A stretch of DNA of 32,554 bases from a virus. Taxonomy: Duplodnaviria; Caudoviricetes. The stretch's first letter is position 1. Each line of letters opens with the position of its first letter. Shown piece after piece: positions 23,538 to 32,554 of this stretch. The DNA is taken from positions 1 to 32,554 of IMG/VR virus record IMGVR_UViG_3300037755_000635; one strand, given 5' to 3'. The position numbers and the translations under genes were made by a program. The notes beneath the pieces were generated by a model. That model had not been told where the DNA came from, made no database searches, and saw nothing but the letters and a program-made list of their open reading frames with translations.

Positions 23538-23898
23538 TGGAAACCTCCTTCGGTGGAACCGCGGCGAGAGTGTAGCCGACGCCGTGCGTGGTGATAATGA
23601 CAAGGCCGAGCGGCGCGATTTTGCGCCGCAGGGACGAGATGCGCACGCGCACGGTCCAGAGCGGGTATTCGGGCTCGTAGCGCGTGGAATAGATCACGCC
23701 GATGATGGCGTCGGAGGAGACGGCGCGACTGAAGCGTTTGTTGAGGGCGGTGAAAATGTCGGCTTCAAGCTGGGTGAGTTTTATCGGGGCCGGGAAGCCG
23801 CCGCGGGTCACGATGTTGTCGAGGCAAAGGACGCCGTGATAGGCGGCGGGGAAGGGTTGGCCGCAGCAGGTGCAGTGGGTTTGGGTGGGCGTTACCAT
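23491..23898 (-). CDS. Stand-alone OmpR/PhoB-type winged-helix DNA-binding protein (CtrA-like C-terminal domain)
   Basis: LTQLEADIFTAL...IYSTRYEPE...VRVRISSLRRKI...IITTHGVGYTL; no receiver domain; N-terminal CTCC. Confidence 0.85.
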   Translation of the reverse strand: MVTPTQTHCTCCGQPFPAAYHGVLCLDNIVTRGGFPAPIKLTQLEADIFTALNKRFSRAVSSDAIIGVIYSTRYEPEYPLWTVRVRISSLRRKIAPLGLVIITTHGVGYTLAAVPPKEVSNASPASQLPLAHHSV

Positions 23899-24578
23899 GC
23901 GGAATTCCCCGTGCCGCTGCCTGCGTTGAAGACTTGCACGAACGCCTGCATGCGGCGAGGGTCAGCAGTGAAGTCGTAGGCTTTGATGACCTCGATTGCT
24001 TCGCGGAACTTGGCGATCTTGCCGTCGAGCTGGGTGATGGCGGAGTCGAGCCCGGCCATGGTGCCGCGCACGATCGCTTCGAGCTGGTTGGGCTCGGGCG
24101 GGTCGGTGCGCTTTGCCTTGGCGTTGGCCGTGCCGCGGCGCTTGAACCGGCCGATCAGGCGTTCGAGTTGCGCGCGTTGGGAGGTGAGTTTGGCGCGGGA
24201 CTTTTCGAAGTCGCGAATGGAGTTCGCCGCGAGGGATTCCATCTCGCGGGCGAAGGGGATCGTGAGCGGGTCGACGCCGGATTTGGCACAGTTGTCCAGC
24301 GTGTGGGCGAGGAGCGCGGAGAGGACTTCGAGGAGTTGCGCGTGGGTGTTGTCGGGGGCGGATTCGGAGCAATCGCCCGTGGAGTCGTAGCGCGCCCGGC
24401 GGTTGGGATCGGTGAGAATGTCGTGGGCGAGCTTGGTCATGGAAAATTTGGCCTGGGAGCCGCCCGCGTCGGGGTGGTCGGATTTGGCGCGGCGCCGGAA
24501 CGCGCCGCGGATGTCCGCGTGGGATGCGTCGCACGGGACGCCGAGATGGGTGTAGAGATCGGGCGCGGCGGATGTCAT
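23892..24578 (-). CDS. DnaJ (J-domain) protein
   Basis: DLYTHLGV...IRGAFRRRAKSDHPDAGG...LTDPNRRARYDSTG with intact HPD motif, followed by a coiled-coil region. Confidence 0.9.
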   Translation of the reverse strand: MTSAAPDLYTHLGVPCDASHADIRGAFRRRAKSDHPDAGGSQAKFSMTKLAHDILTDPNRRARYDSTGDCSESAPDNTHAQLLEVLSALLAHTLDNCAKSGVDPLTIPFAREMESLAANSIRDFEKSRAKLTSQRAQLERLIGRFKRRGTANAKAKRTDPPEPNQLEAIVRGTMAGLDSAITQLDGKIAKFREAIEVIKAYDFTADPRRMQAFVQVFNAGSGTGNSAW

Positions 24579-27333: not shown

Positions 27334-27386
27334 TGCCGCATGTTGTTAATACAAAATAACGCTTGCGTTGTGCGTGGGTTATTGAA

Positions 27387-27415
27387 TTGGCAATGGTTAT
27401 GGATCACTGTAGCGT
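27387..27415 (+). promoter_or_regulatory. Rightward sigma70-like promoter of the early operon
   Basis: TTGGCA-N17-TAGCGT in the AT-rich divergence region; predicted start ~27421. Confidence 0.5.
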
Positions 27416-27463
27416 TGAGCGTTGCGGTTGTGATTCGCGGCGCACAACCCTATGGAGAACAAA

Positions 27464-27727
27464 ATGGCTACTCTCTACCGTATGAAGTCTTGCATCGTAA
27501 AAACACGCAACGGGCACGAAGTGACGCGTGAGCGTGTGATCGCCGAAGAAAGTGAATTGGGCCACGCTTATGAGACCGTGCGTATACGCATGACGGCGGC
27601 ACATCCAGGATGTTACGTGTTTTGTGACGTATCGGAAGGCACACCGTGCACCGAAACGGGCGAGCGAGTGCGTAAAGGGAAAGCTTGCGCTTCCCCGCGC
27701 GTTGCACGACGTACAATGGCGCTCTGA
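27464..27727 (+). CDS. Hypothetical early protein
   Basis: ATG 27464 after GGAGA RBS; 87 aa. Confidence 0.65.
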   Translation: MATLYRMKSCIVKTRNGHEVTRERVIAEESELGHAYETVRIRMTAAHPGCYVFCDVSEGTPCTETGERVRKGKACASPRVARRTMAL

Positions 27728-27728
27728 A

Positions 27729-27782
27729 CGCAGCAAGCGCGCCTCTCGCAATGGGGCGCGCCGTGCTGCGCTTGGATGCGGC
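27729..27782 (+). repeat. Intergenic two-state RNA element, copy 1
   Basis: CGCAGCA-A-GCGCGCCTC-loop-GGGGCGCGC-CG-TGCTGCG-CTTGGA-TGCGGC. Confidence 0.75.
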
Positions 27783-27797
27783 CACAAGGAATGCACC

Positions 27798-27962
27798 ATG
27801 GATCAAAAACGTAAGCCTACGATCTACGAAGCGTTGCGCGACAAGCTGGGCCGCGAGCCTACGCGCGATGAACTCCGCGCCGATGTACGGCGGATATTGG
27901 AAGACGGCACGCGCGAGCGTGCGGAGAAAGGGAAATTGTCTTGGCAACGTAAAAGATCATAG
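27798..27962 (+). CDS. Small conserved phage protein
   Basis: 54 aa MDQKRKPTIYEALRDKLGREPTRDELRADVRRIL...; AAGGA RBS. Confidence 0.75.
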   Translation: MDQKRKPTIYEALRDKLGREPTRDELRADVRRILEDGTRERAEKGKLSWQRKRS

Positions 27963-28012
27963 CGCAATCGGGCATTGGCGACAGTGCCCGACTCGCTGCG
28001 ATCGAATGCGGC
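27960..28012 (+). repeat. Intergenic two-state RNA element, copy 2
   Basis: TAGCG-CAA-TCGGGCATTG-GCGA-CAGTGCCCGA-CT-CGCTGCG-ATCGAA-TGCGGC. Confidence 0.75.
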
Positions 28013-28036
28013 ACAACGAAGCGAAAGGTAAAGGCA

Positions 28037-28123
28037 ATGTTCGAATTCATCTGCTTGATCGTCATGCTCTGGGGCTTGGCGATGATCGTCAAACTGTGGT
28101 GGCAGGGCGAGAAGTTTTGGTGA
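28037..28123 (+). CDS. Small single-pass membrane peptide
   Basis: MFEFICLIVMLWGLAMIVKLWWQGEKFW (28 aa); AAAGG upstream; fills the slot between two hairpins. Confidence 0.6.
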   Translation: MFEFICLIVMLWGLAMIVKLWWQGEKFW

Positions 28124-28164
28124 CGTGATCCAGGCCGCGAGGCTTGGTGAAGGGAGGACGATCA

Positions 28165-28641
28165 ATGCAATTCATCTATGACGACGGCGGCCGCGCTACG
28201 GCCGGATTCAAAGGTGACGCGGGCGACTGCGTTACACGCGCCGTGGCGATTGCTGCGCAGCTTCCCTATGCGGAGGTCTACGCAGCGTTGTCGAAAGGCT
28301 GCAAGACGCAGCGATTGACGAAGCGTTCGCGTGCCAAATCGTCGGCGCGTGATGGCGTGAACACGCGGCGGAAATGGTTCCGCGACTACATGGCGTCGAT
28401 CGGTTTGGTTTGGACCCCGACCATGCTGATCGGCCAAGGCTGCAAGGTGCATCTGCACGACGACGAGTTGCCCAATGGGCGCCTGATCGTCGCCGTCAGC
28501 AAGCACTATACGGCCGTCATCGACGGCGTGATCCGTGACACGCACGATCCGCAGCGCAACGACGTCTGGGTCGATGCCGACGGCGTGCAGCGCATCATGC
28601 GCCGTTGCGTGTACGGCTATTGGCGACAGGTGACGCAATGA
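28165..28641 (+). CDS. Conserved phage protein with possible Cys-His-Asp (papain-like) triad
   Basis: GDCVTRAVAIA...HYTAVIDGVIRDTHD...VYGYW; GGGAGG RBS preceded by a 7-bp GCGA-loop hairpin (28130-28147). Confidence 0.75.
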   Translation: MQFIYDDGGRATAGFKGDAGDCVTRAVAIAAQLPYAEVYAALSKGCKTQRLTKRSRAKSSARDGVNTRRKWFRDYMASIGLVWTPTMLIGQGCKVHLHDDELPNGRLIVAVSKHYTAVIDGVIRDTHDPQRNDVWVDADGVQRIMRRCVYGYWRQVTQ

Positions 28642-28844
28642 TGAACTATCAGCAAGCAATGCGCTGGATCAACGCGGCCGACACGCCGCCATTGCTCAAG
28701 GCCGCGGCGAGAATCAAGCAAGCCGCGTTGCTGCGGGAGTATGCCGGCGTGATCGCCATGCAGGATGAGCCGGTCAGGCACGCGGCGCTCGTGGTGGTGT
28801 TTGTGGATGCGTGCAGCAACGTTGCGATTGCGCATGCGGCGTGA
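28638..28844 (+). CDS. Hypothetical protein
   Basis: 68 aa; ATGA coupling to the upstream gene. Confidence 0.6.
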   Translation: MMNYQQAMRWINAADTPPLLKAAARIKQAALLREYAGVIAMQDEPVRHAALVVVFVDACSNVAIAHAA

Positions 28845-28874
28845 CGTGCGTGACGCGGCGTTGAATGGAGAATC

Positions 28875-28902
28875 CCCCGAGGGAGCGCAAGCGACCGAGG
28901 GG
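28875..28902 (+). other. Hairpin with two tandem GA mismatches and GCAA tetraloop
   Basis: CCCC-GA-GG-GA-GC-GCAA-GC-GA-CC-GA-GGGG. Confidence 0.65.
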
Positions 28903-28944
28903 CGGTGAAGGGCGATTGTCGCCTGACGAGGGAGAACTGGTGTT

Positions 28945-29139
28945 ATGGCAGATAGAATAGTCTCAAGCAGCGAAGCGCACGACATGTCCGAGGGATGGAT
29001 GAAGGACAATCCGGAGCTGGCGGGAAAGGCATTATTGCAATTCTTCCGCGAGCATCCGCCCGAAGAATGGAATTTGACGATCCGACGCGCGTTCATGCCG
29101 GGCATGTTTCTGACGCTTAGCGCGGTGCGTAAAAAGTAA
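28945..29139 (+). CDS. Hypothetical protein
   Basis: 64 aa; GGGAGAA RBS. Confidence 0.65.
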   Translation: MADRIVSSSEAHDMSEGWMKDNPELAGKALLQFFREHPPEEWNLTIRRAFMPGMFLTLSAVRKK

Positions 29140-29208
29140 CAGGCCGAAACGCGCGTTAGGAGAATTTTAACGCGCGTCTGCGAGTGTGGCTCGCACTGAC
29201 GAGGCTGT
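29139..29208 (+). ncRNA. Hammerhead ribozyme, type II
   Basis: ACAGGCC-GAAA-CGCGCGTTA(loop)TAACGCGCG-TC^-TGCGAG(TGTGG)CTCGCA-CTGACGA-GGCTGT. All core nucleotides are present; stem III 10 bp, stem I 6 bp, stem II closed by the ends; predicted cut after C29178. Confidence 0.93.
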
Positions 29209-29235
29209 CGGAGTGCAATAGGGAGAATGAAGACA

Positions 29236-29568
29236 ATGTCTAATGATTTTGTACCAGCTAAAAAAGGCGACGTCGTGGCAATTCGCGTAAGGGCCGCGAA
29301 TCACGATGCAGCGCGCCCCGAATGGTGGCTTCTTGCGTGGGTGGAACGTTCTTCGCGCGCAGGAAAAGTGCGCGATGTGCGTCTTGCCGGGCAATACGGC
29401 ACATTGCCTGCCTCAGCCATCGGGCAGGTTTATGCTATTGGAAATTCAGAGAAGCAGCGACTTGCGCGCAAGCTTGCGCAAGGGATGAAATATCCCGGCG
29501 TGACGTTCGACACGGATACGGAGCTCAAAGACGCGATTATGAATGCGGACGGCGGCGCGGCGGATTGA
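29236..29568 (+). CDS. Hypothetical protein downstream of the ribozyme
   Basis: 110 aa from ATG 29236 (best spacing to GGGAG; alternative start 29227). Confidence 0.7.
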   Translation: MSNDFVPAKKGDVVAIRVRAANHDAARPEWWLLAWVERSSRAGKVRDVRLAGQYGTLPASAIGQVYAIGNSEKQRLARKLAQGMKYPGVTFDTDTELKDAIMNADGGAAD

Positions 29569-29571
29569 CCA

Positions 29572-29622
29572 CAGCTAGCGCGCACCGCGAACGATGCGCG
29601 TCATGCTGCGATCATGTGCAGC
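29572..29622 (+). repeat. Intergenic two-state RNA element, copy 3
   Basis: CAGC-TA-GCGCGCACCG-CGAA-CGATGCGCGT-CAT-GCTGCG-ATCATG-TGCAGC, then TTGAAGGGAGAA. Confidence 0.75.
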
Positions 29623-29644
29623 GATTGAAGGGAGAACTATTCCA

Positions 29645-29950
29645 ATGAGTGAACCACTGACAGACGTGATATTTCGCGTTTGGTGCAAGGATGGCGACGT
29701 AATCGCGTTGTTTCCGGGTATCGCTGGGGATTACAGCGCGGGAACGTGCGACAGCTTTCAACACATTGGCCAGCATGGCGCGGCCAGTCTCAATTTAATG
29801 CGCGCACTCACGCGCCCGGCCTTGCCGCGTGAATTCGCGGATTTGAAGCGCGAACTGGAATCGGCGCCTTACAAATATCGCTTGCGCATCATCAAGCGCA
29901 CAACGCGGCGGCACTTCAAAGAGCGTCAAGCGCAATTACAGCGTGCCTAG
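29645..29950 (+). CDS. Conserved phage early protein
   Basis: 101 aa; VIFRVW...VIALFP...SFQHIGQH...TRPA...LKRELES pattern; GAAGGGAGAA RBS. Confidence 0.75.
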   Translation: MSEPLTDVIFRVWCKDGDVIALFPGIAGDYSAGTCDSFQHIGQHGAASLNLMRALTRPALPREFADLKRELESAPYKYRLRIIKRTTRRHFKERQAQLQRA

Positions 29951-30000
29951 CGCATCGGGCGTGGTCCGCCGCGCCCCTTGCGCTGTGCATGTCGCGCGGC
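29948..30000 (+). repeat. Intergenic two-state RNA element, copy 4
   Basis: TAGCGCA-TC-GGGCGTGG-TCCG-CCGCGCCC-CT-TGCGCTGTGC-ATGTC-GCGCGGC, then TTGAAGGGAGAA. Confidence 0.75.
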
Positions 30001-30021
30001 AATTGAAGGGAGAATAACGCA

Positions 30022-30372
30022 ATGCCACAACTGAACAACCCCACGCGCGCCCATTTGCGCGTGGTCGCCAACAACGCCGCGATCGCCAAGCCGCGCGACT
30101 ATCGCGGCGAACCGGACTTCACCCGGGAGTATTTTATTCGCGCGCTCGAAGGCCGCGCGGATATGGACCTCTACAGCGGCCGGACGCTGATTAGCGCGTT
30201 CGTGCTGGGTGAAACGGACTATGCCCGGCATGAAGCGTTGCGCAGTGCGTATGCGCTGGCTGTGTGGGAGGATGCCGACGGCGCCGTGTTCCATTGCACG
30301 ATGGATCGCGCGGCGTATGGCGCGTGGGTGAGCAAGGCGTGTGACGCGCTTGACGACGAAGAAGACGAGTAG
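30022..30372 (+). CDS. Hypothetical protein
   Basis: 116 aa with acidic tail; GAAGGGAGAA RBS. Confidence 0.7.
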   Translation: MPQLNNPTRAHLRVVANNAAIAKPRDYRGEPDFTREYFIRALEGRADMDLYSGRTLISAFVLGETDYARHEALRSAYALAVWEDADGAVFHCTMDRAAYGAWVSKACDALDDEEDE

Positions 30373-30373
30373 G

Positions 30374-30430
30374 ACCATTGCGCTAGGGCGCATCGTTCGC
30401 GGTGCGCCCGTCGCAGCGGTTTTGAGCTGC
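30374..30430 (+). repeat. Intergenic two-state RNA element, copy 5 (covaried)
   Basis: ACCATTGCG-CTA-GGGCGCATCG-TTCG-CGGTGCGCCC-GT-CGCAGC-GGTTTTGA-GCTGC. Confidence 0.75.
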
Positions 30431-30454
30431 ATGTGGAGAAAGGGAGAACTGACT

Positions 30455-31018
30455 ATGACGACGAAGACGACGAAAGCGCCGCGTGAGGAAATCACGGAGC
30501 GCGATTGCGACGAGCTGGTGCGGCGTGAGGTGATGTGCTGCGTGAGTGGGATTGTGAGCGTGCTTGCCGGCGGATATGGATTTGTTACATCGCAAGCCAA
30601 ACGTCACGGCTTGGTCGACGGCGGCAATGAACTGGCGGCGTTGTGTGAACAAGCCATGGAACTCGCCGCGCCGGTCGACGACTGGGAAGAAGCGGCGATT
30701 CAGGCTGGGTGGCGCGATAGCGGCACGGTTGAATTTTCTCATGCCGAAACCGGCCGCGTGGAAATCGGCGACAACTGGCGCGAGCTGTGCGAATCCGAAG
30801 GCATCGAACCCTATCAGCGCGAAGTCTTCGAGCACTGGGCCGTTTCGTTCTGGCTCGCCGATGCCCTCGAAGCGGAAGGCGAAAAGGTGGACCGCGATTT
30901 CCAGGGCCTCAATGTCTGGGCGCGCACCACGACCGGCTAGGGGATCGCGTCGGACGGTGTGATTCGCCGGGTGATCGAAGCGGCGCGGACGCGCGTCGCG
31001 GCATTCGCGGCGAACTGA
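30455..31018 (+). CDS. Conserved acidic phage protein with an in-frame TAG at 30938-30940 (nonsense allele or readthrough)
   Basis: ATG 30455; EVFEHWAVSFWLA...VWARTTTG*GIASDGVIRRVI...; the frame continues 25 codons to TGA 31016-31018, just before the next intergenic element. Confidence 0.7.
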
Positions 31019-31022
31019 CGAA

Positions 31023-31087
31023 CGAGCATAGCCTAAAGACGCATCCCGCACGTGCGTGGTGCGTCTCCGGCTGCGCTCGGACGTGGT
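31023..31087 (+). repeat. Intergenic two-state RNA element, copy 6
   Basis: CGAGCATAGCC-TAA-AGACGCATC-...-GGTGCGTCT-CC-GGCTGCG-CTCGGA-CGTGGT, then AAAGGGAGAA. Confidence 0.7.
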
Positions 31088-31110
31088 ATAGCAAAGGGAG
31101 AACAAAGCAA

Positions 31111-31440
31111 ATGGGAACGATCACGCGCCATACGCACCGGGACGTCATCAAAGACGTTCGGGACCGTTGGCAATATCAATATCGGATGTGGGGCTCTGAC
31201 GAAGCGGTGCAAGTCACGAATGGCCCGCGCAAGATCGGTACCATCCGCCGCGCGTTGAGGGCACTCGACCTTGAAACTTGTTCGGCCGAAGACGTCGATG
31301 CCGCGATCGGGCGCCCCGGGTGGGTCGCGCTTACATGCGACGTCTGCAACAAGGATCAAGACGAGATTTTGCACATCGAATCCGAAAGCGAGCGCGCGGT
31401 CGATGTGTGTTTCGAGTGCGCTCGCACGGCAATGAAATAG
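31111..31440 (+). CDS. Hypothetical Zn-finger protein
   Basis: 109 aa; CDVC...CFEC; AAAGGGAGAA RBS. Confidence 0.75.
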   Translation: MGTITRHTHRDVIKDVRDRWQYQYRMWGSDEAVQVTNGPRKIGTIRRALRALDLETCSAEDVDAAIGRPGWVALTCDVCNKDQDEILHIESESERAVDVCFECARTAMK

Positions 31441-31457
31441 CAAAGGGAGAACAGCAA

Positions 31458-31571
31458 ATGTTTCATTCGAAATTCGTCAAATTCATGCGCGCGGGCGTGC
31501 TCGATATCGTCGCATGGGCGTGCGTGGCGTTCATGTTCGGCGCCTGGCTTACGCAACAGGTGGTGCAATGA
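31458..31571 (+). CDS. Small single-pass membrane peptide
   Basis: MFHSKFVKFMRAGVLDIVAWACVAFMFGAWLTQQVVQ (37 aa); strong RBS; ATGA coupling downstream. Confidence 0.65.
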   Translation: MFHSKFVKFMRAGVLDIVAWACVAFMFGAWLTQQVVQ

Positions 31572-31966
31572 CCGGCGCGCAATTGTCGGTCGCGCGGGCG
31601 AAGGATCGCGCGGCGATGCTTGACCTGCTCGTTCAGCTCGCCATGCAGCATGGGCCGTATTGGGTATGCACCAGCCGCCAAGTCGGCCGGCGCATCGTCG
31701 TGACGTTCCACGGCCCGCGCGGCCTGACCATGAGCGTCAATCTCGACGGAGACAGCCCACAGGCGCGACGCGGCGTGTTTGTGCTTTCATGGCATGGGGT
31801 CAAAGAACCGTATCGGCTGCGGCAATCGTTCGCCCACGATGTGAACCCGTATCACAACCACAAAGCCACGGATGTTTGTGGCTCGTTCGACGGGGTGTTG
31901 CGTATCCTGCCGGCGCGGCTGCAATCGGCGATCGATGGGAGCGCGTTCCAATGCCCGAATCCGTGA
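31568..31966 (+). CDS. Hypothetical protein
   Basis: 132 aa from MTGAQLSV; ...SWH...VNPYHNHKAT motif. Confidence 0.7.
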   Translation: MTGAQLSVARAKDRAAMLDLLVQLAMQHGPYWVCTSRQVGRRIVVTFHGPRGLTMSVNLDGDSPQARRGVFVLSWHGVKEPYRLRQSFAHDVNPYHNHKATDVCGSFDGVLRILPARLQSAIDGSAFQCPNP

Positions 31967-32169
31967 AAATGACCAAAGCCTTGCAAAAGGCTTTGGATTG
32001 GCTCGCGGCGCACAACGGCGAAGGCCATTTCGGCGGCGCGGGCAACACGCTCATGGCGGCGGGAGAAATCGCGCCGTTCATGCGTTCGACGTGGAATCGT
32101 TTGGAAGTCTTGGGGAAGGTGAAATTCTCTCACGGCCGCAAGCGTATTCAGCTCGTGCGCCCCGAATGA
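31951..32169 (+). CDS. Small hypothetical protein (possibly winged-helix-like)
   Basis: 72 aa from MPESVKMTKALQKALDWL; GGGAG RBS. Confidence 0.65.
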   Translation: MPESVKMTKALQKALDWLAAHNGEGHFGGAGNTLMAAGEIAPFMRSTWNRLEVLGKVKFSHGRKRIQLVRPE

Positions 32170-32554
32170 TTCGCGCGGTTATTTTTGCGTGCACGGCGGC
32201 CATCGCTGCCGCGCTGCACCATTCGCGCGTCGTTGCCTTCAACCCGACGGCGCCGGGCGTGGAGCCATTGCCGTTCGCCGACGAACTCGCGCGACAAGGC
32301 GAGGCCACGCGCGTCAAATCGTTGAGCTATGAGGATCATGTTTTCCTCGCGCGCACGATCTTCGGCGAATGCGCCCGCTGCGGCCGCGACGAACAAACCG
32401 CTATTATTTATGTGGTTATTAATAGACTCCGCACCGGGCGATATGGCGCGAACATTGGCGACGTGGTGACATTCTCGCGCGGCCGGACCTTCGCATTCTC
32501 AACCTGGAGCCCGCACAGCGCGTCTAATTTCAACGAGGCCACAGGGAGCCACGT
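32166..32554 (+). CDS. SleB/Hydrolase_2-family cell wall hydrolase, partial (runs off right edge)
   Basis: Manual translation: hydrophobic N-terminus MIRAVIFACTAAIAAAL, then FLARTIFGE...AIIYVVINR...YGANIGDVV...AFSTW, matching the SleB pattern with catalytic Glu and (Q/A)FS.W. Confidence 0.8.
   Translation, partial: MIRAVIFACTAAIAAALHHSRVVAFNPTAPGVEPLPFADELARQGEATRVKSLSYEDHVFLARTIFGECARCGRDEQTAIIYVVINRLRTGRYGANIGDVVTFSRGRTFAFSTWSPHSASNFNEATGSH

What the first reader, a model, noticed from the sequence alone, without database searches (positions are those of the whole stretch)
29139..29236. The ribozyme occupies the same slot as the hairpin elements and would yield the same kind of product
This spacer lacks the two-state element and has the hammerhead instead. 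Cleavage leaves a downstream RNA that starts with a hairpin (stem I, TGCGAG-TGTGG-CTCGCA) about 40 nt before the GGGAGAA RBS. That is the same 5'-hairpin-then-RBS layout predicted for the other genes. This suggests the two elements are interchangeable processing modules and offers a function for phage hammerheads.
Basis: inference. Interest (0 to 1): 0.75.

Follow-up and report, generated by a model that had tools for sequence, protein, structure and literature searches.

The report
Ribozyme swaps with RNase III hairpins
A hammerhead-ribozyme motif sits between two small early genes of this phage in the position where six other gaps hold a long RNA hairpin, related phages show the reverse mix, and the hairpin is predicted to be a cut site for the host enzyme RNase III, so self-cutting and host-cutting signals likely do one job: chopping a long message into hairpin-capped single-gene pieces.

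Summary
Observation confirmed. 29142-29206 is a type II hammerhead (Rfam RF02276 32.3 bits, under the cut-off of 37) with an intact core; the predicted cut after C29178 puts stem I at the 5' end, 42 nt before the RBS. Six other spacers hold a covarying long hairpin. Exchange is seen: relatives L140 and L166 carry 9 and 5 hammerheads but one hairpin each, and homologs of genes 30455 and 29645 have hammerheads where the window has the hairpin. The hairpin fits E. coli RNase III preferences best for a cut directly before its refolding 5' stem (A-U at position D' in 13 of 13), though no window copy passes the strict published score. New side result: a tail that pairs with the catalytic core in 13 of 45 hammerheads. 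Limits: no cleavage or RNA data; the hammerhead's own flanking genes have no relatives; processing by phage hammerheads was proposed in 2011 (PMC3088659); this scan noted the same theme on other genomes. New variant of a known kind.

The parts
29142..29206 (+). Type II hammerhead ribozyme motif (stem II open, stems I and III closed); predicted cut after C29178
   Evidence: U at stem I position 7 and A before the 4-bp stem II, as in 44 of 45 related motifs
29179..29195 (+). Stem I hairpin, predicted 5' end of the downstream RNA
   Evidence: first 5 nt paired with probability 0.94
29149..29177 (+). Stem III hairpin, predicted 3' end of the upstream RNA; its loop holds an RBS-like AGGAGAA with no start codon behind it
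29196..29211 (+). Anti-core hairpin: the tail 29206-29211 can pair with the catalytic strand 29196-29201; excludes the active fold
29221..29227 (+). Ribosome-binding site GGGAGAA, repeated before six genes of the array
28945..29139 (+). Upstream gene, 64 aa, no family, no relative found
29236..29568 (+). Downstream gene, about 110 aa, no family, no relative found
27723..27786 (+). Long two-state hairpin S1; predicted cut before 27765
27952..28016 (+). Long two-state hairpin S2; predicted cut before 27995
29564..29626 (+). Long two-state hairpin S6; predicted cut before 29605; closest in sequence to the copies in L140 and L166; worst RNase III score (-37.7)
29940..30004 (+). Long two-state hairpin S7; predicted cut before 29982
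30370..30434 (+). Long two-state hairpin S8, upstream of gene 30455; predicted cut before 30413; carries the A-U to U-A swap in both folds
31021..31091 (+). Long two-state hairpin S9, downstream of gene 30455; predicted cut before 31070
28814..28875 (+). Possible seventh, weak copy overlapping the end of gene 28638, without a clear refolding stem
   Evidence: 16.1 bits, E 0.4; z -1.16
30455..31018 (+). Gene of family A1, used for the exchange test; TAG at 30938-40 falls inside the conserved C-terminal motif
29645..29950 (+). Gene of family A2, second exchange test
27464..32554 (+). Array of 15 small same-strand genes, divergent from the structural genes (terminase, major head protein on the minus strand); read as the early region

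Best explanation
The spacer holds a type II hammerhead motif in the slot, just behind a stop codon and ahead of the next RBS, that six other spacers fill with a long covarying hairpin and that related phages fill with either element; the hammerhead likely cuts itself and the hairpin is likely nicked once by host RNase III, so both would split a presumed long early transcript into gene-length RNAs capped by a hairpin at each new end. Shown: the motif, the hairpin and its covariation, the shared slot, the exchange next to homologous genes. Inferred: one polycistronic transcript; self-cleavage after C29178; a single RNase III cut on the 3' side of the internal loop, directly before the GCWG box; refolding of the freed strand into a 5-7 bp hairpin at nucleotide +1, the counterpart of stem I; retention of the upper stem (8-12 bp) on the upstream RNA, the counterpart of stem III; protection of both ends from decay. 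The hammerhead's 3' piece would also refold, its core strand pairing with the tail behind stem II, which would stop re-ligation or limit cutting to a short window during transcription.
For: Hammerhead; tertiary-contact positions conserved in 44 of 45 distinct motifs including this one; GAAA 3-12 nt behind a stop in 35 of 37 scored of 42. Hairpin: 96% of cells paired, 10 of 17 pairs with two-sided changes, 0 of 500 shuffles; refolding stem of 5 bp or more in 11 of 11. Exchange: L140 9 hammerheads plus 1 hairpin, L166 5 plus 1, window 1 plus 6; these share three (L140) or six (L166) genes with the window. Among 91 distinct A1 loci a hammerhead lies upstream in 9 of 90, downstream in 4 of 88, inside the gene in 0 of 91; the hairpin lies downstream in the window and L168-L170. 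The window's A1 protein groups with that of L266 (SH-aLRT 95, quick tree), which has a hammerhead behind the gene. A2: hammerhead downstream in 2 of 68. RNase III: two helical turns with an internal loop, as in T7 R1.1 (PMC6121014, PMC1540722); A-U or U-A at D' in 13 of 13 and at I' in 13 of 13 against 0-5 of 13 elsewhere, G at J' in 8 of 13, G 11 nt upstream of the cut in 10 of 13; the Table S4 score of PMC6212723 peaks at this register on average and beats shuffled pair order in 10000 of 10000 trials for the six window copies. Anti-core tail: 13 of 45 against 2.6 expected, with the variable core base matched in all 13.
Against: No window copy reaches the strict RNase III score of -25.5 (values -26.8 to -28.2 and -37.7; five of six pass the loose -33.8), and a register two positions higher scores about as well for S8, S9 and S7 under the paper's pseudocount (my re-implementation, E. 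coli rules, host unknown). The pair next to the predicted cut is G-C in all copies, a catalytic antideterminant for the E. coli enzyme (7-14-fold, PMC1540722). With one copy per lineage the pair-order test gives only p 0.01-0.12. The refolding stem is weak for S1 and S9 (0.54, 0.60) and its energy beats shuffles in only 2 of 5 window copies scored. The hammerhead scores below Rfam's cut-off, and the anti-core fold is 1.9 kcal/mol more stable than the active secondary structure. Most A1 and A2 loci have neither element beside the gene, and long hairpins in general are no commoner in these spacers than inside the gene (16 of 90, 19 of 88, 24 of 91). The arrays are mosaic, so a slot is defined by one flanking gene only. 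No promoter above chance was found.
Confidence: 0.58

Rival explanations
1. The hairpin is not cut. It is a stabiliser, insulator or RNase III binding site, and it shares a slot with the hammerhead only because every module in these arrays is RBS-gene-trailer and trailers are shuffled by recombination at the repeated RBS.
For: G-C next to the predicted cut can allow binding without cleavage (PMC3867540 section 7). Clean gene gain or loss at the RBS is seen: a near-identical strain in run X2 lacks gene 28165 (joint 28156 to 28638, one contig), and L140 and L166 differ by whole gene-plus-hammerhead units. No copy passes the strict score.
Against: The second, mutually exclusive stem begins at the base where RNase III rules place the cut and has little use without a cut; RBS accessibility does not rise between the folds, so it is not a translation switch; no U-tract, so not an intrinsic terminator.
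Confidence: 0.2
2. The pattern is right for the family, but this particular hammerhead is slow or silent, held off by its own tail, so this spacer is mostly left uncut.
For: Equilibrium folding gives the anti-core hairpin probability 0.85-0.96 and stem II about 0 once the tail is made; Rfam score under the cut-off; any loop I-tail pseudoknot has only 4 pairs, two of them G-U.
Against: Core, three stems and both tertiary-contact positions are intact; the tail recurs with compensation in 13 of 45 intact motifs, so it looks selected; the energy model leaves out core and Mg2+ contributions.
Confidence: 0.12
3. The long hairpin is itself an undescribed self-cleaving ribozyme that replaces the hammerhead.
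For: It sits where self-cleaving ribozymes sit, the reasoning by which twister sister, pistol and hatchet were found (PMC6765202); no Rfam family matches it.
Against: Its conserved positions are base pairs of a helix; internal-loop bases vary freely; no conserved unpaired core or pseudoknot was seen; the conserved pairs fall on RNase III boxes.
Confidence: 0.05
4. The hairpin acts as DNA: a REP- or attC-like palindrome marking cassette borders for recombination.
For: Cassette-like gene turnover; imperfect palindromes starting at stop codons; resemblance to REP and attC elements is recalled, not tested.
Against: G-U pairs are frequent and strand-specific, all good model hits are on the coding strand, and the one breakpoint seen lies at an RBS in a spacer without the element.
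Confidence: 0.05

Closest known systems
Type II hammerhead ribozymes (Rfam RF02276) and the tandem prophage hammerheads of Perreault et al. 2011 (PMC3088659, passages read)
   Same: Same core and topology; placed between small phage genes; that paper already proposes processing into operon- or gene-length mRNAs and shows cleavage of triple arrays in vitro and in E. coli.
   Different: Here the slot alternates with a non-ribozyme hairpin; the motif scores below the Rfam cut-off; the loop I-tail pseudoknot is weak, and the tail instead pairs with the catalytic strand in 13 of 45 related motifs.
RNase III processing signals of the phage T7 early transcript (R1.1; PMC6121014, PMC1540722, PMC3867540, passages and sections read)
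   Same: Intergenic hairpin of about two helical turns with an internal loop; a single cut leaves a protective 3' hairpin on the upstream RNA; five such signals punctuate one early transcript.
   Different: GC-rich, smaller internal loop (1-4 by 2-3 nt against 4 by 5); a built-in second stem that would cap the downstream 5' end; exchange with a ribozyme; cutting is predicted, not shown.
Ribozyme-associated gene contexts and RAGATH motifs (PMC6765202 passages; RAGATH recalled, seen only in a search listing)
   Same: Different ribozyme classes occupy the same phage-like contexts, suggesting that the cut matters and the motif does not; a type III hammerhead fills the slot in L185.
   Different: No RAGATH or other Rfam family matches the hairpin; the alternative here would be a protein-cut site.

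Membership tests
Type II hammerhead ribozyme | Core CUGANGA, GAAA and NUH in type II order | tested here: met
Type II hammerhead ribozyme | Stems I, II, III around the core, with G10.1-C11.1 and A15.1-U16.1 | tested here: met
   6, 4 and 10 or more bp
Type II hammerhead ribozyme | Rfam RF02276 gathering score of 37 bits | tested here: not met
   32.3 bits, E 0.0012; the related motifs of this group also score 21-36 bits
Type II hammerhead ribozyme | Tertiary contact between loop I and the stem II region | tested here: inconclusive
   U at position 1.7 and A before stem II are present, as in 44 of 45; the U1.7-A Hoogsteen contact is described for other hammerheads (PMC11875169) and is inferred here; the pseudoknot has 4 weak pairs
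Type II hammerhead ribozyme | Self-cleavage after the NUH triplet | not testable with these tools
   needs in vitro transcription or RNA-end data
RNase III processing site (T7 R1.1 type) | About 22 bp of helix around the cut, with an internal loop that limits it to one strand | tested here: met
   upper stem 8-12 bp, loop 1-4 by 2-3 nt, lower stem 9-13 bp with one mismatch in the window and L168-L170 copies scored; covariation
RNase III processing site (T7 R1.1 type) | A-U or U-A at proximal-box position 2 (D') | tested here: met
   13 of 13; the register was first chosen from this pair, then checked against J, J' and the full score
RNase III processing site (T7 R1.1 type) | No G-C or C-G at the pair next to the scissile bond (E. 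coli enzyme) | tested here: not met
   A-U in 0 of 13 at that position; such pairs still make up 22 of 86 counts at B' in Table S4 of PMC6212723
RNase III processing site (T7 R1.1 type) | Published in vivo substrate score | tested here: inconclusive
   window: 0 of 6 pass -25.5, 5 of 6 pass -33.8; all 13: 1 and 12; the score was built on double-cut, fully paired sites
RNase III processing site (T7 R1.1 type) | RNase III-dependent cleavage | not testable with these tools
   needs enzyme assay or rnc mutant
Any Rfam family for the hairpin element | Covariance-model match | tested here: not met

The most novel reading that the evidence does not exclude
Phages of this group treat a self-cleaving ribozyme and a host RNase III site as plug-compatible parts: each cuts once behind a stop codon and is built so that both products refold into end-capping hairpins, the hammerhead using a tail that pairs with its own catalytic strand as a lock or timer. 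Lineages sweep from mostly ribozyme (9 to 1) to mostly RNase III site (1 to 6), trading dependence on a host enzyme for autonomy. This would give bacterial and phage hammerheads a defined, testable job.
Probability: 0.45. Interest if true: 0.78.

Novelty: new variant of a known kind. Interest (0 to 1): 0.62.

Why it matters
The biological role of most bacterial and phage self-cleaving ribozymes is described as largely unknown (PMC6765202). A natural swap with a well-understood protein-cut signal turns the old processing hypothesis into a clean test: exchange the parts, map the ends, measure decay. It also names nucleotide-level predictions (cut positions, end chemistry, RNase III dependence) and a possible control feature of these hammerheads, the anti-core tail. 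Short natural parts that insulate genes in an operon could be useful in synthetic biology.

Tried and rejected
Orthologous spacer of the hammerhead itself: no relative of the downstream gene in viral contigs, annotated phages or the protein collection; the two hits for the upstream gene are spurious matches inside a long unrelated frame; the profile search of cluster representatives never left the queue, so distant relatives remain untested. RNA evidence: no RNA holder listed. Sequence-pattern scans for the hairpin in viral contigs gave noise or only L140 and L166 again. A general long-hairpin count did not separate spacers from coding sequence and is not used as support. The structural descriptor is circular for the window and noisy outside it (20 plus-strand, 10 minus-strand hits in 1.5 Mb). 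mis-assigned the 5' arm of S6; searches use the corrected arm. No hammerhead and no hairpin copy in 35 prophage-like loci of named genomes; no hammerhead in the records of L168-L171 and L183, most of them fragments. Translation switch rejected: RBS accessibility does not rise after the predicted cuts. Terminator and promoter scans are at chance level. The careful protein tree did not finish; a quick tree is cited. Literature searches for this exchange or for the anti-core tail found nothing; the library lacks most subscription papers and bioRxiv supplements.

Full report
Setting. The window is a whole 32,554-base virus record, 63% G+C, with terminase and major head genes on the minus strand and an array of 15 small plus-strand genes from 27464 to the end, six of them behind the RBS GGGAGAA. 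I read this array as the early region; that is inference. It comes from a sediment metagenome by the run record. The host is unknown; 18 of 35 genome-contig relatives of gene 30455 lie in alphaproteobacterial records.

The observation. The spacer holds a type II hammerhead motif: stem II 29142-45 with 29203-06, GAAA, stem III, GUC, stem I 29179-84 with 29190-95, CUGACGA. Rfam RF02276 gives 32.3 bits, E 0.0012, below its cut-off of 37; my descriptor finds no other hammerhead in the window. GAAA starts 6 nt behind the upstream stop. The predicted cut after C29178 leaves stem III on the upstream RNA and stem I at the very 5' end of the downstream RNA, 42 nt before the RBS. Among 45 distinct type II motifs from this window and related loci, 44 have U at stem I position 7 and 44 have A before the 4-bp stem II; this one has both. 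A Hoogsteen contact of U1.7 with an A near stem II is described for other hammerheads (PMC11875169, passages); that it forms here is inferred.

The other element. Six spacers (27723, 27952, 29564, 29940, 30370, 31021) fold into a long hairpin: an upper stem of 8-12 bp, a small internal loop, and a lower stem with one mismatch that starts at or near the upstream stop. On an alignment of 10 copies (five from the window, five from other phages) 96% of cells pair and 10 of 17 pairs show two-sided changes, reached by 0 of 500 shuffles and by no slid structure. The 3' arm of the lower stem (GCWG box) can instead pair with sequence just downstream: 5-7 bp in 11 of 11 copies, against 14-47% per copy when the downstream bases are shuffled. 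One copy, S8, swaps A-U for U-A in both folds. The copies are related, so these are not independent trials, and an energy-based control is weaker (p 0.27, 0.18, 0.044, 0.013, 0.68 for the five window copies scored). No Rfam family matches the element.

The exchange test. The genes beside the hammerhead have no relatives, so I used neighbours. For gene 30455 (family A1) 122 viral and metagenome loci plus the window reduce to 91 distinct ones. A hammerhead lies directly upstream in 9 of 90 and directly downstream in 4 of 88 (L140, L166, L266, L337), and inside the gene in 0 of 91. The window has the hairpin on both sides, and L168-L170 have it downstream. L140 and L166 are real relatives, sharing three and six genes with the window. 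They carry 9 and 5 hammerheads, one per spacer, and a single hairpin copy each, close in sequence to S6 and placed before the homolog of gene 30022: the inverse of the window's 1 and 6. In a quick tree the window's A1 protein pairs with that of L266 (SH-aLRT 95), which has a hammerhead behind the gene. For gene 29645 (family A2), 2 of 68 distinct loci have a hammerhead behind the gene, one type II and one type III, and 0 of 68 before it. Against over-reading: most loci have neither element, long hairpins in general are not enriched in these spacers, and the arrays are mosaic, so the slot is fixed by one flanking gene only. Gene gain or loss at the RBS (one contig) gives a route for shuffling such parts.

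What cuts the hairpin. T7 R1.1 is a 60-nt hairpin with a 4 by 5 internal loop cut into 47 and 13 nt (PMC6121014, passages). Internal loops limit RNase III to one cut and leave a protective 3' hairpin, and substrates span about two turns (PMC1540722, passages and sections 10, 12, part of 22; PMC3867540, passages and section 7). In vivo the third pair beyond the cut (D, D') is strongly A-U or U-A, and G is favoured 11 nt upstream of each cut (PMC6212723, passages, section 15, Table S4). Placing the cut directly before the GCWG box gives A-U or U-A at D' in 13 of 13 copies (six window, five relatives, two look-alikes in L183 and L186), A-U at I' in 13 of 13, at most 5 of 13 at other positions, G at J' in 8 of 13 and G at -11 in 10 of 13. 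My version of the paper's score is highest on average at this register (-29.4 against -30.8 for the next best), and with a softer pseudocount it is best there in 10 of 13 copies, one a tie. Shuffling the order of canonical pairs never reaches the observed value for the six window copies (0 of 10000); for one copy per lineage p is 0.01-0.12. Against: no window copy passes the strict threshold, S6 fails both, and the pair beside the cut is G-C, which slows the E. coli enzyme 7-14-fold. One mBio paper notes that real sites often fit the consensus poorly (PMC5371410, one passage). I put RNase III cutting at about 0.65. At this register the refolding stem starts at nucleotide +1, as stem I does, 21-30 nt before the RBS.

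A new detail of the hammerhead. The tail behind stem II can pair with the catalytic strand (29196-29201 with 29206-29211). Of 45 distinct motifs, 13 have such a stem of 5 bp or more against 2.6 expected from shuffled tails (P 1e-5, related sequences), and the variable core base is matched each time (U-A 9, C-G 2, A-U 1, U-G 1). It occurs where the RBS is 23 nt or more from the core (the window's true RBS is at 25 nt). So the ribozyme product is itself two-state. This fold is 1.9 kcal/mol more stable than the active secondary structure, so it may lock the product, time the cut, or silence this copy.

Mechanism, committed. Shown: motif, hairpin, shared slot, exchange. Inferred: a long early transcript is cut behind each gene by the ribozyme or by RNase III; each cut leaves a 3' hairpin and a 5' hairpin; both would slow decay and uncouple neighbouring genes. 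That 5' hairpins and 5'-OH ends hinder 5'-end-dependent decay is recalled knowledge; PMC3867540 notes that an unstructured 5'-phosphate end made by RNase III triggers RNase E, which explains why the protein-cut version would need its own cap. RBS accessibility does not rise with the cut, so I do not read it as a translation switch.

Comparison with what is known. Perreault et al. 2011 (PMC3088659, passages) described type II hammerheads and tandem prophage arrays, proposed processing into gene-length mRNAs and showed cleavage. PMC6765202 (passages) calls the bacterial role largely elusive. T7 gives the RNase III precedent. I found no paper on exchange between the two, or on the anti-core tail, in a library that lacks most subscription journals. 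This scan has noted hairpins in hammerhead slots on several other genomes; those notes are unchecked leads, and none covers this DNA.

Verdict. New variant of a known kind; interest 0.62.

Noticed in passing
window 30938-30940: In-frame TAG in gene 30455 at the position of a nearly invariant Gln of the family's C-terminal motif; the frame stays open to TGA 31016-18. Also present in the Logan contig of X1. A broken gene or read-through.
   Followed up: partly
window 28866-28944: Spacer with a different content: an RBS-like GGAGAA, a hairpin with two tandem G-A mismatches and a GCAA loop, then a short hairpin followed by CUGACGA directly before the RBS, which looks like the 3' half of a hammerhead without GAAA and stem III. 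No Rfam match.
   Followed up: partly
window 28156-28638, run X2: One contig of a near-identical strain joins the RBS of gene 28165 to the start of gene 28638, lacking the whole gene.
   Followed up: no
window 27360-27465: Structured leader before the first gene of the array, with three hairpins (z -1.65); hit by the two-state descriptor but not by the model.
   Followed up: partly
window 29158-29164: The loop of hammerhead stem III holds an RBS-like AGGAGAA with no start codon behind it.
   Followed up: no
L162 4920-5020 and 5512-5580: In a three-hammerhead array, the spacer before the A1 gene looks like a chimera of a hairpin element and a hammerhead 3' half, and the spacer after it holds a different two-state hairpin, while close relative L337 has hammerheads in both slots.
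   Followed up: partly
L166 6458-6490: A CUGACGA remnant lies just 5' of the single hairpin copy.
   Followed up: no
L183 6372-6440 and L186 8005-8070: Hairpins of the same architecture with unrelated sequence, A-U at D' and a C mismatch at the same position; not hit by model R1.
   Followed up: partly
L140, L162, L166, L268, L270, L271, L274, L337: Arrays of 3 to 9 type II hammerheads, none reaching Rfam's cut-off; several have an extra U after CUGAUGA.
   Followed up: partly
window 23895-24578 (-) and 32166-32552 (+): DnaJ-domain protein, and a cell-wall hydrolase-like gene cut by the contig end; both have homologs in L166.
   Followed up: no
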